Source: an uncultured Candidatus Peribacteria bacterium (GTDB lineage: Bacteria; Patescibacteriota; Gracilibacteria; Absconditabacterales; Absconditicoccaceae). Taken from it: a DNA stretch of 25,023 nt. Below, piece by piece: positions 13,332-16,440 of the stretch. The stretch is from NCBI GenBank assembly GCA_964551805.1, contig CAZKEK010000001.1:1-25023 (forward strand), read 5' to 3'. The notes under the pieces are model-generated. The model searched no databases, was not told the DNA's origin, and saw only the letters and a program-made list of their open reading frames with translations. A program made the position numbers and the translations under genes. Every line of letters begins with the position of its first letter. Position 1 is the stretch's first letter.

Positions 13332-14378
13332 ATGGAAATACCCAATTGATGAATTTCTAGAAAAAAAATAATTCAACCAAATCTATTAGATATTTTGGAC
13401 ATTTTATCAAAAAATAATTTATCTGAACAAGAAAAAGAAAATTATGAAATCAAAAAAGAAATAATCAGCAAAAAAGAATTTGCAGATATGAGGTTACTTA
13501 CGAAAGAATCATTATTAAAAATAGAACTTAAAGAGAACTGAAACTTCCCCAAAAAAAGACAAGAAATTTTAGAATGATGGACTAATATATCAGAAGGAAA
13601 AAATACAATAATAAACAAAAGATTAATAAAAGAAGTTATATTACCAAAATTAGAAGAAACATATACAGAATTTAAAAATAAATGATGAACATCAGAACAA
13701 AAAAAAATATTGGATGAATGTTATAAAAATGGACTATATTTTATAAATACAATTTCAAAAAAAACAATATGCGAAAATTTCAGACTAAGAAAATGTGCTC
13801 AAGTAGCTAGATGAGAACGATTTTTATTTACTACAAATGAGAATAAAGACAAATATATTATACTAGAAATAAAAAAGATAACTGAAGAATTCAAAAAAGA
13901 ATTTAAAGCATGATTAGAAGTCCAAAAAACAAATACAGATATAAATTTATTTGATGATCAAACTTTTTTTGTAAGAAGACATATCGATGAGGGAACTGAT
14001 ATTACTAAAATGTCAGATATTTTATTACAATGAAAAAAAATATTGGATCATTATCTTGCTGATAAACATATTAGATATATGACATCCTGTAGCTGGCTTT
14101 TTGACGAAAAATTCAATGAATTTTGGATGAAAGAAAGAGCAAAAGAATGAAAAAAAGAAATTCCCAATAGAATAAAAATAAGAGAAGAATTAAAATATTA
14201 TTGATGAAAACTACCTGATGAGAAGATGAAAGAACCAATTGAAAATGACCTCATACCATGAATAGAAAATTCTATGACGAGAGCAATAAAAAAATATATA
14301 TCAGAATGAAATGTATTGAAAGAAGGCTGAGGATATATCGATTTAGAAAAATTAGAAAAACGAAAAACAGAAAAATAA
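13332..14378 (+). CDS. Putative acyltransferase with GNAT-like C-terminal domain (GNAT_C/DUF5596-type), 348 aa
   Basis: Open with TGA=Gly. RHIDEG, MTSCSWLFDE and SMTRAIKKYISEGNVLKEGGGYI resemble the HIP..CxSWLL..LQRA..G..G pattern of that family. Absent from the track. Confidence 0.6.
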
Positions 14379-14427
14379 TTATCCTCTCTTATATTACCCG
14401 ATAATCTCAGATTAAATACTTTTTCTC

Positions 14428-14456
14428 TTGAAAAGTATAAAACAGTTAAATATAAT
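14428..14456 (+). promoter_or_regulatory. Sigma70-like promoter of the PemK-like gene
   Basis: TTGAAA-N17-TATAAT. Confidence 0.55.
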
Positions 14457-14507
14457 TACTTTGCCATACAAACAAGAATATATATTTTATGTGTGTAGGC
14501 GGGAAAA

Positions 14508-14840
14508 ATGGAAAAAACAAGAGAACTTTTTGATATATGGAACGAAAACAAGAAAAAAGATGGTAAATTTAAAAGAGTGTGCTTAATATTACATAATAAC
14601 CTCGGAAATTGATTGCTATTAGTTGCACCAATCACAACAAAATATCATAAACGAATGGAAAAATATTATATTAAAATAGATAGATATGAAAAATATGGAC
14701 TCAAAGAATGTCGGATTATCATAAACCAAATAAAACTCATAGATACCAAAAGATTATTTTCCAAACCAAATAATAAAAGACCTCTTTTGTGATTGGCAAT
14801 CAAAGTAAGACACTTTTATTGGAACATTATCCAAAAATAA
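14508..14840 (+). CDS. PemK/MazF-family toxin-like protein, 110 aa, no adjacent protein antitoxin
   Basis: FDIWNENKK..KRVCLILHN..LLLVAPITTK..IIINQIKLIDTKRL match PemK/MazF motifs (RPxLI, VAPIT, QIxxIDxxRL); two TGA=Gly. Confidence 0.75.
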
Positions 14841-14916
14841 AAAAAAATTGCCTCGAGATTTCTCTCAAGGGCAGTGGCAGATACGAGTCTGCAAAAGGAT
14901 CATTACTGATCACATT
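14841..14916 (-). ncRNA. Candidate small structured RNA 1
   Basis: Minus strand: promoter TTGCAT-N16-TATAAT (14950-14923), then hairpins GAUCA-GUAA-UGAUC, GCAGA-cucgua-UCUGC and UGCCcUUGAGA-GAAA-UCUCGAGGCA plus a U run. Confidence 0.55.
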
Positions 14917-14922
14917 GCAATA

Positions 14923-14950
14923 ATTATAAATATTATATTTTGAAATGCAA
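14923..14950 (-). promoter_or_regulatory. Antisense sigma70-like promoter 1
   Basis: TTGCAT-N16-TATAAT on the minus strand. Confidence 0.55.
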
Positions 14951-14979
14951 ATAAAAAATCAATAAAATTATTTTTCAAT

Positions 14980-15059
14980 AACATAAGAACCCCAGTCAGA
15001 ATTACTTCCGCCGGGGGGTGTAGAAAGCCAGATTACTCCAGACCAACATCTACTGTATG
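14980..15059 (-). ncRNA. Candidate small structured RNA 2
   Basis: Minus strand: promoter TTGCAT-N16-TATACT, then GUAGA..CUGGA-GUAA-UCUGG..UCUAC and CCCC..CGGAA-GUAA-UUCUG..GGGG followed by UUCUU. Confidence 0.5.
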
Positions 15060-15065
15060 CAATAA

Positions 15066-15093
15066 AGTATAAATATTCCCTTCTGAAATGCAA
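15066..15093 (-). promoter_or_regulatory. Antisense sigma70-like promoter 2 (near-duplicate of promoter 1)
   Basis: TTGCAT-N16-TATACT; shares TGCAATAA, TATAAATATT and TGAAATGCAAAT blocks with 14916-14952. Confidence 0.55.
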
Positions 15094-15195
15094 ATTTTAA
15101 AAAAAACAAACATACAATTCCCACTTTTTTTTACAAACAAAATTATTATCATAAACAAGTTATACAGAACCTTAATTCTTAATTCTTAATTATTC

Positions 15196-16440
15196 ATGCT
15201 CTTAATCTGAGATATTCATATCAATACGCGTTATCAAGACAAAATCCTGACTGGACTCAGAGATATTTTTTCTGCATATCCCGACGAAAAGACTATGGTT
15301 TTTTTCTGAGATTACGTCTACCATTTTGCTTACGATAGAAACGCATTACTTCAGCTCTACAAATTATTTTTAGAACTCTTCGCACAAGGAAAAAACGTCT
15401 ACATACTCGCGGGTAATCATGATCGGCTAGGAAATTCTTTCGTTTTTGAAGAAGCACAAAAAGCTTTCGAAACAATTATACATGATAGATTAGAAATGAT
15501 AGATTGAATAGGTAAGATCAAGTTTATTACTAAGCCAGTAGTAGAAAATATAGAAGGTGAAGACATAGTATTGTTACCATTCTTTTTGCCTACAGAACAC
15601 GAAGAAAGTAGTTATAGTCCAAAAAACGAAAGACTAAAAACTATCAACGAATTTTCTACATTGCTCCAAAAATCTACCAACAAAAACGAAGCTTTTTCAT
15701 GATATATCAATCAAGTAGTTGCAGAAGCCATAGACAAAAACCCCAATATCACAATTTTTCATCACTACTATATCAACGGAACACCATTTCCCGGACAAAA
15801 ATCTAGATTTAGTTACAAAGATATTGCGCTCCATGAATGATTTTTGGACATACCGACCACAAAACTTATTTCCTGACATCTTCACCAACCATTTACCTAC
15901 AACAATTATCTTTGCATAGGAAGCGTACGATCTACAAGTTCTTTGGAAACCAACCAAAACAAATATGTGTTTCAGTACGATACCACCACAAAAAAAATAA
16001 CAGCATTGCCACTTATGATCAATCCCCAAGTCACAATAACCAGCGAAACATCGCTCACTGAAGCTACACTCATAGAGCAATTAAAAATCATCAATGCAGA
16101 AAATAAATCATATTTTAGCTCACCAGCACGAGATATTATTTTTGCAGAAGATCAAGAACCAAACATAAAAAACATTTCACTGACCCTCAACGTCGAACAT
16201 ATCGATTACGACAAAATTGATGAGTTCATCACGCCGGAACTCCGCACATCATGCAAAGATATCAGACTCAAAAAAAACATGGAAAATATAGATAGCTTAC
16301 TTAAGACATTTAAAGTTTCCTCAGACACCTTAAGCGGATTTTCTGATCGAAAAAATATCCTCCAAGAATTTATACAAAAAAAATTTGGAGCTGACTACCC
16401 CAAATACGAAAAAATTTTGAAAGAACTGAAGCTACTATAA
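15196..16440 (+). CDS. Calcineurin-like metallophosphoesterase, SbcD/Mre11-like, 414 aa
   Basis: All five motifs are present: LIGDIH, FGDY, AGNHD, FHHY and SGHLH; three motif Gly are TGA. Confidence 0.85.

What the first reader, a model, noticed from the sequence alone, without database searches (positions are those of the whole stretch)
14428..15095. Solo PemK/MazF-like toxin opposed by two tandem antisense small-RNA cassettes
Seen: no antitoxin ORF lies between the toxin's promoter (14428-14456) and its ATG. Downstream, two near-duplicate minus-strand promoters (TTGCAT-N16-TATA(A/C)T, about 142 bp apart, 30 identical positions) each precede about 80 nt of hairpins. Four loops are GNRA tetraloops only when read on the minus strand (GUAA x3, GAAA), and cassette 1 ends in a U-tailed terminator abutting the toxin stop codon. 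The promoters are conserved between cassettes while the RNA bodies differ in sequence. Established: ToxN-type (type III) toxins share the MazF/Kid fold and are neutralised by RNA, but those RNAs lie upstream on the same strand. Inference: this is a candidate RNA-antitoxin module with a convergent, multi-cassette layout, either antisense to the toxin 3' UTR or binding the protein.
Basis: partly seen in the sequence, partly recalled or inferred. Interest (0 to 1): 0.75.

Follow-up and report, generated by a model that had tools for sequence, protein, structure and literature searches.

The report
Decayed MazF toxin / small-RNA antidote modules
The two small hairpin-RNA genes facing this MazF-type toxin gene are real and most likely RNA antidotes, but the locus is the worn-down remains of two toxin/RNA pairs of a kind common in these bacteria, with one little-known precedent on a Campylobacter plasmid.

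Summary
The genome uses code 25 (TGA=Gly; relatives are Absconditabacterales/SR1). The PemK/MazF gene (14508-14840) is faced by two promoter-hairpin-terminator units on the minus strand.

In 48 related PemK loci, 40 have a convergent promoter within 115 nt of the stop codon, against 11% of control ORFs. No protein antitoxin gene is nearby. RNA class tracks toxin clade. The class-A RNA keeps three hairpins through compensatory changes.

The "multi-cassette" reading is not supported.
- Cassette 2 is an orphan RNA of a second, deleted toxin; 11 codons of that gene remain at 14949-14981.
- The surviving toxin has a 93-nt in-frame deletion that removes strand beta1 and the beta1-beta2 loop.
- A sister genome shows the reciprocal decay.

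The closest known system is the PemK-like gene pVir0047 with the Northern-verified sRNA CJpv3 on C. jejuni plasmid pVir. This is probably the published type I pair CjpT/CjrA. This scan has reported the same pairing before on other DNA (51 notes).

RNA antidote overall: about 0.75. Whether it acts as an antisense RNA or by binding the protein is unresolved. No expression data exist for this organism.

The parts
14428..14456 (+). Promoter-like site of the toxin gene (TTGAAA-N17-TATAAT)
   Evidence: Consensus scan, 11 of 12 matches. Function is inferred.
14508..14840 (+). PemK/MazF-family toxin gene, clade A. 110 aa under code 25, with a 93-nt in-frame internal deletion.
   Evidence: Translation with two TGA=Gly. 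Pfam PF02452, E 1.2e-9. The deletion is seen against the orthologues. The orthologue model has the MazF fold.
14841..14922 (-). Class-A small RNA gene (cassette 1). Hairpin A has a GUAA loop, hairpin B a CUCGUA loop, and hairpin C is the terminator. The TSS is inferred at about 14916-14918.
   Evidence: Covariance model match of 96.9 bits. Fold z-score -3.5. 87-91% conserved next to PemK orthologues. Covariation.
14839..14870 (-). Intrinsic terminator of the class-A RNA: stem 14870-14851 and U-tract 14847-14839, which overlaps the toxin stop codon at 14838-14840.
   Evidence: Terminator scan and direct reading of the sequence.
14923..14950 (-). Promoter of the class-A RNA (TTGCAT-N16-TATAAT)
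   Evidence: The same position and form occur in the orthologous loci.
14949..14981 (+). 3' stub (11 codons, one now a stop) of a deleted second PemK gene, clade B
   Evidence: Alignment to the intact gene in G009:C123. Homology starts at about 14949. Translation K*KINKIIFQ* against KQKINKIIFQ*.
14977..15059 (-). Class-B small RNA gene (cassette 2), now an orphan. Two GUAA-loop hairpins and a U-rich tail that overlaps the stub's stop codon.
   Evidence: 97% identical to the RNA that follows PemK-B in G009. Folds only on the minus strand. The differences from G009 keep pairing through G-U wobbles.
15066..15093 (-). Promoter of the class-B RNA (TTGCAT-N16-TATACT)

Best explanation
The block 14428-15093 is the remains of two tail-to-tail toxin/small-RNA modules.

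A module consists of:
- a MazF/PemK-type RNase gene with its own promoter and no terminator;
- a convergent, strongly promoted RNA gene of about 50-90 nt, made of hairpins, that ends at or over the toxin's stop codon.

The RNA is the antidote (about 0.75 for this step, whatever the mechanism).

The mechanism I commit to is cis-acting and type I-like.
- The toxin gene has no terminator of its own, so toxin transcripts run head-on into the RNA gene.
- They acquire a 3' extension that is perfectly complementary to the abundant small RNA.
- Loop-loop contact (hairpin B loop CUNGUA, which fits YUNR) followed by duplex formation, and collision with the much stronger convergent transcription, lower the amount of translatable toxin mRNA.

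In this window both modules have decayed.
- Toxin A lost 31 residues, including strand beta1 and the beta1-beta2 loop, and is probably inactive.
- Toxin B is gone except for 11 codons.
- Both RNA genes are intact.

Shown: the anatomy, the association, the covariation, the missing terminator, the decay pattern, and the homology to pVir0047/CJpv3.
Inferred: transcription in this organism, the antidote function, and the antisense mechanism.
For: Association
- 40 of 48 PemK loci have a convergent promoter within 115 nt of the stop, against 11% of 2034 control ORFs. Promoter plus strong fold: 32 of 48 against 19 of 2034. Among those control hits only the window's own gene is a PemK.
- The class-A RNA model hits 5 of 151 class-level genomes. 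The four strong hits lie next to a PemK gene; the fifth (G123, E 0.01) was not examined.

No protein partner
- Neighbouring genes differ between loci and no conserved small ORF is present.
- The two AbrB/MazE-domain proteins in the genome are stand-alone and lie elsewhere.

RNA structure
- 15 distinct class-A RNAs fold independently into the same three hairpins.
- 89.8% of cells are paired against 35-51% in the slid controls. 9 of 17 pairs change on both sides (0 of 500 shuffles reach this).

Module inheritance
- RNA class follows the toxin tree: 4 label changes, minimum 3, shuffled mean 22.9.

Read-through
- Only 1 of 45 loci has a plus-strand terminator between the toxin stop and the RNA promoter. 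41 have none within about 300 nt.

Decay asymmetry
- The window keeps RNA-B with only a toxin stub, and toxin A is deleted internally.
- G009 has RNA-A with no toxin A.
- Own contig C75 has an RNA with only a toxin stub.

Precedent
- The pVir PemK-like gene is 35% identical, including the N-terminal FDxWNExKK motif.
- CJpv3 is a 77-nt convergent sRNA ending 5 nt past that gene's stop. It was detected by Northern blot, with 16164 TSS reads against 28 for the toxin (PMC3656092, Tables S5 and S12).
- CjrA on pVir is described as an antisense RNA antitoxin of a type I system (PMC10470494, PMC7826846).
Against: - There is no transcript evidence for this organism.
- Cis-antisense action needs no conserved sequence. 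Yet the loop CUNGUA, the 5' AAUG, and (in class C) ACAA motifs on both sides of the hairpin core are conserved while the stems change.
- Orphan RNA genes with intact promoters would have no cis target.
- For classes A and B the RNA overlaps the coding region by at most a few nucleotides.
- One locus (L083) carries a three-unit RNA that resembles a type III repeat array.
- I could not read Shen et al. 2016, so it is not verified that CjpT is pVir0047 or that the mechanism there is antisense.
- Related loci are not independent, so the P values overstate the evidence.
Confidence: 0.45

Rival explanations
1. The RNA is the antidote but works as in type III systems. It binds the MazF-fold protein directly, perhaps as a pseudo-substrate, and may be trimmed by the toxin at the conserved A-rich motifs that flank the hairpin core. 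The convergent position only serves tight linkage and independent promoter strength.
For: - Sequence is conserved in single-stranded parts and loops while the stems covary.
- ACAA-type motifs lie on both sides of the two-hairpin core in most class-C RNAs, which have no U-tract terminator.
- L083 has three tandem hairpin-pair units separated by AACAA or UAAAC.
- Orphan RNA genes keep their promoters and their pairing.
- RNA class tracks toxin clade.
- The mapped 3' end of CJpv3 lies 2 nt after a GC hairpin with no U-tract, which fits a processed end.
- Established knowledge: ToxN shares the Kid/MazF fold and is inhibited by RNA.
Against: - The toxin is a true PemK/MazF, not ToxN. Every listed structural match is MazF, PemK/MoxT, YdcE or Kid.
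- The RNA is a single unit in nearly all loci, on the opposite strand and downstream. Known type III RNAs are upstream repeat arrays on the same strand.
- The invariant abutting, convergent placement and the missing toxin terminator point to a cis effect.
- The literature calls CjrA type I.
Confidence: 0.3
2. The small RNAs are not antidotes. They could be a cis-regulatory or insulating device, such as a terminator or roadblock that shields downstream genes from toxin read-through. They could also be a regulatory sRNA with other targets that travels with the toxin gene, or a substrate or cofactor of the RNase.
For: - No functional or expression data exist for this lineage.
- Co-inheritance alone does not show interaction.
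- The toxin genes lack their own terminators, so some 3' device is needed.
Against: - A mere terminator needs no strong promoter, no three conserved hairpins and no conserved loops.
- A toxic MazF-type RNase with no antidote would be hard to maintain in up to 8 copies per genome.
- The decay pattern is the one expected for an antidote: toxins erode and RNAs persist.
- The related pVir RNA is reported to be an antitoxin.
Confidence: 0.15
3. The minus-strand units encode a small protein antitoxin that starts at the AUG near the 5' end of the transcript.
For: An AUG lies about 8 nt from the inferred start in most class-A RNAs. Under code 25 it opens ORFs of 18-53 codons.
Against: - ORF lengths and peptide sequences are not conserved.
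- The AUG is replaced by ACG, AAG, AUU or UUG in several class-C and class-A members.
- Substitutions are compensatory in the stems rather than synonymous.
Confidence: 0.03

Closest known systems
PemK-like gene CJJ81176_pVir0047 with sRNA CJpv3 on Campylobacter jejuni 81-176 plasmid pVir; probably the type I pair CjpT/CjrA of Shen et al. 2016 (Mol Microbiol 101:909)
   Same: - The toxin belongs to the same PemK subfamily, with the N-terminal FDxWNExKK extension (35% identity).
- No adjacent protein antitoxin is annotated.
- A convergent sRNA of about 77 nt, with three hairpins and its own strong promoter, ends 5 nt past the toxin stop.
- The RNA is reported to be an antitoxin.
   Different: - Different phylum, the standard genetic code, and a plasmid-borne location.
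- I noticed no RNA sequence similarity by eye; this was not formally tested.
- The class-A loop motifs are absent.
- The identity of CjpT with pVir0047 and the published mechanism could not be read here.
Bacillus subtilis type I systems with convergent, 3'-overlapping antitoxin RNAs (txpA/RatA, bsrG/SR4); from my own knowledge
   Same: - Convergent small RNA gene at the toxin's 3' end.
- The toxin transcript runs into the RNA gene.
- Strong antitoxin promoter and weak toxin promoter.
   Different: - Those toxins are small hydrophobic membrane peptides, not a 110-150 aa MazF-fold RNase.
- Their overlap is 75-120 nt and is documented. Here the overlap with the coding part is 0 to a few nt, and the 3' UTR overlap is inferred.
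Type III toxin-antitoxin systems (ToxIN, CptIN, TenpIN; PMC3401426, PMC5086642)
   Same: - An endoribonuclease toxin with a Kid/MazF-like fold is neutralised by a structured non-coding RNA.
- One locus (L083) has a tandem three-unit RNA.
   Different: - The toxin here is Pfam PemK, not ToxN.
- The RNA lies downstream, is convergent, has its own promoter, and is normally a single unit. Type III RNAs are upstream repeat arrays on the same strand.
MazEF / PemIK (Kis-Kid) type II systems
   Same: Toxin family and fold. The best matches are B. anthracis PemK/MoxT, S. aureus MazF and B. subtilis EndoA.
   Different: - No MazE/PemI gene is present.
- The toxin has an extra N-terminal helix.
- An RNA gene stands in place of the protein partner.

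Membership tests
PemK/MazF toxin family (Pfam PF02452) | Sequence match above the curated cut-off | tested here: met
   38.8 bits against a cut-off of 23.1, E 1.2e-9. The family profile matches PDB PemK, MazF and EndoA at E about 1e-12.
PemK/MazF toxin family (Pfam PF02452) | Complete MazF barrel, including strand beta1 and the beta1-beta2 loop | tested here: not met
   The window protein lacks orthologue residues of about 17-48. In the model this covers the end of the N-terminal helix, beta1 (33-37) and most of the beta1-beta2 loop (low-confidence segment 42-47). The Pfam match starts at profile position 17. The intact orthologue has the full fold.
PemK/MazF toxin family (Pfam PF02452) | Conserved Arg at the start of beta2 (invariant R54 of the family alignment) | tested here: met
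   R54 is invariant in 44 sequences and is retained in the window protein (KFKRVCL). Its catalytic role is inferred from solved MazF structures.
Type II MazEF/PemIK system | Adjacent co-transcribed protein antitoxin gene (MazE/PemI) | tested here: not met
   Only 51 nt lie between the promoter and the ATG. No conserved small ORF flanks any of the 17 loci examined. The genome's two AbrB-domain proteins lie elsewhere and stand alone.
Type III system (ToxIN-like) | ToxN/AbiQ-family toxin | tested here: not met
   Pfam reports only PemK_toxin. No ToxN appears among the 50 listed structural matches.
Type III system (ToxIN-like) | Antitoxin is a tandem direct-repeat array upstream on the toxin's strand | tested here: not met
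   The RNA genes are downstream and convergent, each with its own promoter. The two window cassettes differ in their RNA bodies.
Type III system (ToxIN-like) | RNA binds and inhibits the toxin protein and is processed by it | not testable with these tools
   No RNA-protein modelling or assay is available.
Type I system | Antitoxin RNA is transcribed antisense to, and overlaps, the toxin transcript | tested here: inconclusive
   The RNA gene is convergent, and its U-tract overlaps the stop codon. 44 of 45 loci have no plus-strand terminator before the RNA gene, so overlap with a read-through 3' end is likely. No transcripts were seen.
Type I system | Small hydrophobic membrane-active toxin peptide | tested here: not met
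   The toxin is a soluble MazF-fold RNase homologue of 110-150 aa.
pVir0047/CJpv3-type module (probable CjpT/CjrA) | PemK-subfamily toxin with the N-terminal FDxWNExKK extension | tested here: met
   tblastn and BLASTP give 35% identity over residues 8-122. The motif is present in the window protein and in the pVir protein.
pVir0047/CJpv3-type module (probable CjpT/CjrA) | Convergent, separately promoted small hairpin RNA gene ending at the toxin stop codon | tested here: met
   Window. pVir. Relatives.
pVir0047/CJpv3-type module (probable CjpT/CjrA) | The RNA is expressed and neutralises the toxin | not testable with these tools
   Expression is shown only for CJpv3 (PMC3656092). Antitoxin activity is reported only for CjrA. 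There is no RNA data for this organism.

The most novel reading that the evidence does not exclude
A whole branch of genuine MazF-fold toxins is held in check by direct binding of a small, toxin-trimmed hairpin RNA. That would be a type III-like mechanism on a type II toxin scaffold with a type I-like gene layout. The orphan RNA genes left after toxin loss, as in this window, would then act in trans as immunity against incoming modules of the same class.
Probability: 0.3. Interest if true: 0.8.

Novelty: new member of a known kind. Interest (0 to 1): 0.55.

Why it matters
- MazF is the textbook type II toxin. Here a large subfamily, routinely annotated as "type II" or "solo", has no protein partner. 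It is instead tied to unannotated small RNA genes that match no Rfam family.
- Recognising this corrects the annotation of many "orphan" toxins in candidate-phyla bacteria.
- It adds several structured sRNA families to organisms in which few are known.
- It links them to a single, rarely cited experimental case in Campylobacter.
- The window adds an evolutionary snapshot. Tandem modules at one hot spot decay toxin-first and leave orphan antidote RNAs. This is indirect genetic support for the antidote role, and it makes the antisense versus protein-binding question directly testable.

Tried and rejected
- Known RNA families: Rfam gave nothing meaningful for the window at E up to 10, and no match at gathering score for eight related loci including pVir. 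There are no tRNA or tmRNA genes in the region.
- Expression: no RNA holder is listed. Contigs of three metatranscriptomes from the same samples do not cover the locus. Run X13 gave only an unstranded 214-nt contig of a relative spanning 14774-14988. This is no evidence either way.
- Trans-antisense action on the toxin's 5' UTR or start: cognate duplex energies equal non-cognate ones (-17.1 against -17.4 kcal/mol, P 0.55). Rejected.
- Peptide coding by the small transcripts: rejected, because the AUG and the ORFs are not conserved and the stems change by compensation.
- Adjacent or remote protein antitoxin: none found.
- "Promoter duplication is special": the TTGCAT...TATA(A/C)T form is the generic strong promoter of this genome.
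- Technical limits:
  - The alignment-based locus search failed with the wide alignment.
  - The metagenome scan gave only 4 loci.
  - The MAFFT and Infernal alignments misplace hairpin A in the most divergent members, so the pair counts are conservative for that helix.
- Literature: Shen et al. 2016 is not held and "cjpT" occurs in no relevant held paper. The equation CjpT = pVir0047 is therefore unverified.

Full report
**Genetic code and gene map**
Under table 11 the toxin frame is broken by TGA. Under code 25 (TGA=Gly) long frames open across the whole window, and the toxin reads as 110 aa at 14508-14840. Related contigs are named Candidatus Absconditabacterales, SR1 or Gracilibacteria. 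The protein matches Pfam PemK_toxin. The upstream gene (13332-14378) and the downstream gene (15196-16440, a metallophosphoesterase) are unrelated. The 355-nt gap after the toxin holds the two cassettes.

**Checking the observation**
The promoter-like sites, the 143-bp spacing, the 46-nt repeat, the hairpins, the four GNRA loops and the minus-strand terminator that abuts the stop codon are all present. Cassette 2 folds far better on the minus strand (-26 against -13 kcal/mol). Cassette 1 folds equally well on both strands, so its strand is set by the promoter and the U-tract. The promoter form TTGCAT-N16-18-TATA(A/C)T occurs 16 times in the 1.15-Mb genome, mostly 20-50 nt before ordinary genes. 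It is the organism's strong-promoter type and not a feature special to this locus.

**Comparative evidence**
- Cassette 1 DNA is 87-91% identical in four genomes of the same genus. In three of them it lies directly next to the PemK orthologue.
- The same layout appears behind PemK homologues down to about 35-45% identity: convergent promoter, hairpins, and an end at the stop codon. The RNA sequences differ between them.
- The toxin family occurs in 46 of 141 genomes of the order, with up to 8 copies per genome.
- Of 48 non-redundant loci, 40 have a convergent promoter within 115 nt of the stop, against 11% of 2034 control ORFs from the window's own genome. Promoter plus a stable fold occurs in 32 of 48 against 19 of 2034 (odds ratio 212). 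Loci are related to each other, so the P value overstates the evidence. The control hits are spurious ORFs or ordinary terminators.
- Neighbouring genes vary, and no conserved small ORF accompanies the toxins.

**RNA classes and structure**
I distinguish three classes.
- Class A (window cassette 1): a 5' AAUG, hairpin A with a GNRA loop, a 5-nt linker, hairpin B with loop CU(N)GUA, and a terminator whose U-tract overlaps the stop codon.
- Class B (window cassette 2): a variable hairpin, then A-CCCC...GGGG-UUC.
- Class C: a 5' CACAAAUGUCC-loop-GGAUCC, a GC hairpin, then ACAA, with no U-tract.

Fifteen distinct class-A sequences fold on their own into the same three hairpins, with at least five different hairpin-B stems. 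On the Infernal alignment:
- 89.8% of cells pair, against 79.9% when shuffled and 35-51% when slid.
- 9 of 17 pairs change on both sides (0 of 500 shuffles reach this).
- The covariation score is 0.339, against at most 0.152 in the slid controls.
- The alignment is fitted to the structure, which favours it.

The class-A model finds 5 of 151 class-level genomes. The four strong hits lie beside a PemK; the fifth (G123, E 0.01) was not examined. RNA class follows the toxin tree (4 changes, minimum 3, shuffled mean 22.9), while single genomes carry several classes. Toxin and RNA are therefore inherited as one module. This alone does not prove that they interact.

**What is special in this window**
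1. The toxin lacks 31 residues that all 44 aligned full-length relatives have, through a clean 93-nt in-frame deletion.
   - In the AlphaFold model of the intact orthologue (pLDDT 83) the lost part is the end of the N-terminal helix, strand beta1 and most of the beta1-beta2 loop.
   - The model and the family profile match MazF, PemK, EndoA and Kid structures.
   - The retained codons show dN/dS 0.085 against G020. By my count from the alignment there is no excess of window-specific replacements, so the deletion is probably recent.
2. Cassette 2 is 97% identical to the RNA that follows a clade-B PemK (149 aa) in G009. Window 14949-14981 still encodes that gene's last codons. It is therefore an orphan RNA-B.
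3. G009 shows the reciprocal state at the same hot spot: RNA-A with no toxin A, followed by RNA-B and an intact toxin B.
4. The window's genome also has two intact class-C modules (contigs C24 and C6) and a third decayed one (C75: RNA plus a toxin stub of about 20 codons).

Toxins erode and the RNA genes stay. This is the order expected if the RNA is the antidote.

**Mechanism**
- Only 1 of 45 loci has a plus-strand terminator between the toxin stop and the RNA promoter, and 41 have none within about 300 nt. Toxin transcripts must therefore enter the RNA gene and become complementary to the small RNA.
- This, the invariant abutting convergent layout, and the YUNR-like loop of hairpin B favour a cis-antisense or transcription-interference mechanism.
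- Against it, and in favour of direct protein binding:
  - motifs conserved in single-stranded parts and loops;
  - ACAA motifs on both sides of the class-C core;
  - class-C RNAs without terminators;
  - the three-unit RNA of L083;
  - the orphan RNA genes.
- Pairing with the toxin's 5' UTR or start is not supported. A peptide product is unlikely.
- My estimates: RNA antidote about 0.75 overall, split into antisense or cis 0.45 and protein binding 0.30. Other role 0.15.

**Relation to what is known**
Earlier notes of this scan reported the same pairing on other DNA (51 notes, at least 47 genomes) and pointed to C. jejuni pVir. I checked this lead.
- tblastn against plasmids returns the pVir gene annotated as a PemK/MazF toxin (30634-31038) among its 10 matches, all from Campylobacter or Helicobacter plasmids. 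Identity is 35% and includes the N-terminal motif.
- Its downstream region has a convergent TTGATT-N17-TATAAT promoter and three hairpins.
- Dugar et al. 2013 list sRNA CJpv3 on the minus strand at 31119-31043 (77 nt), between pVir0047 (405 nt) and pVir0048. It was detected on a Northern blot, and its TSS has 16164 reads against 28 for the toxin TSS (PMC3656092, Tables S5 and S12).
- Two papers state that CjrA on pVir is an experimentally validated antisense RNA antitoxin of a type I system, citing Shen et al. 2016.
- I could not read that paper, so the equations CjrA = CJpv3 and CjpT = pVir0047 remain probable and are not shown.

**Verdict**
The RNA-antitoxin reading is well supported by comparison and by one experimental relative. 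The "two cassettes against one solo toxin" layout is an artefact of decay of two tandem modules. I file it as a new member, in a code-25 lineage and with new RNA classes, of a barely characterised known kind.

Noticed in passing
window 14404-14415 and 15202-15213: A perfect 12-nt inverted repeat (ATCTCAGATTAA / TTAATCTGAGAT) brackets the whole toxin plus two-RNA block. The second arm lies in codons 3-6 of the metallophosphoesterase gene. It could mark a cassette boundary or be chance.
   Followed up: no
window about 15171-15194: A heptamer repeat AATTCTT x3 lies just upstream of the metallophosphoesterase start. It recurs at 96-100% identity over 20-25 nt, in many copies, in most of the 60 relatives searched. 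It may be a widespread regulatory or promoter-associated repeat.
   Followed up: no
whole genome G000: TTGCAT is commoner than TTGACA (971 against 539 occurrences). TTGCAT-N16-18-TATA(A/C)T precedes many ordinary genes at 20-50 nt, which suggests a lineage-specific -35 consensus.
   Followed up: partly
G000:C75 about 1948-2140: A third decayed module in the same genome: a class-C RNA gene with its promoter, followed by only the last ~20 codons of a PemK gene.
   Followed up: partly
L083 1906-2078 (G004:C34): The RNA behind this PemK is about 165 nt, with three hairpin-pair units separated by AACAA or UAAAC (MFE -58.7 kcal/mol, z -6.0). It resembles a type III antitoxin repeat array.
   Followed up: partly
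G000:C35:7881-7970 and G000:C3:15695-15784: Two paralogous stand-alone AbrB/SpoVT-domain proteins of about 65-70 aa. At least one lies next to a transporter-like membrane protein gene, and neither is next to any toxin gene.
   Followed up: partly
H5-H10 (Helicobacter suis and Helicobacter sp. plasmids): Small Helicobacter plasmids carry PemK genes of the same subfamily (32-34% identity over residues 6-113). Whether they also have a convergent sRNA was not checked.
   Followed up: no
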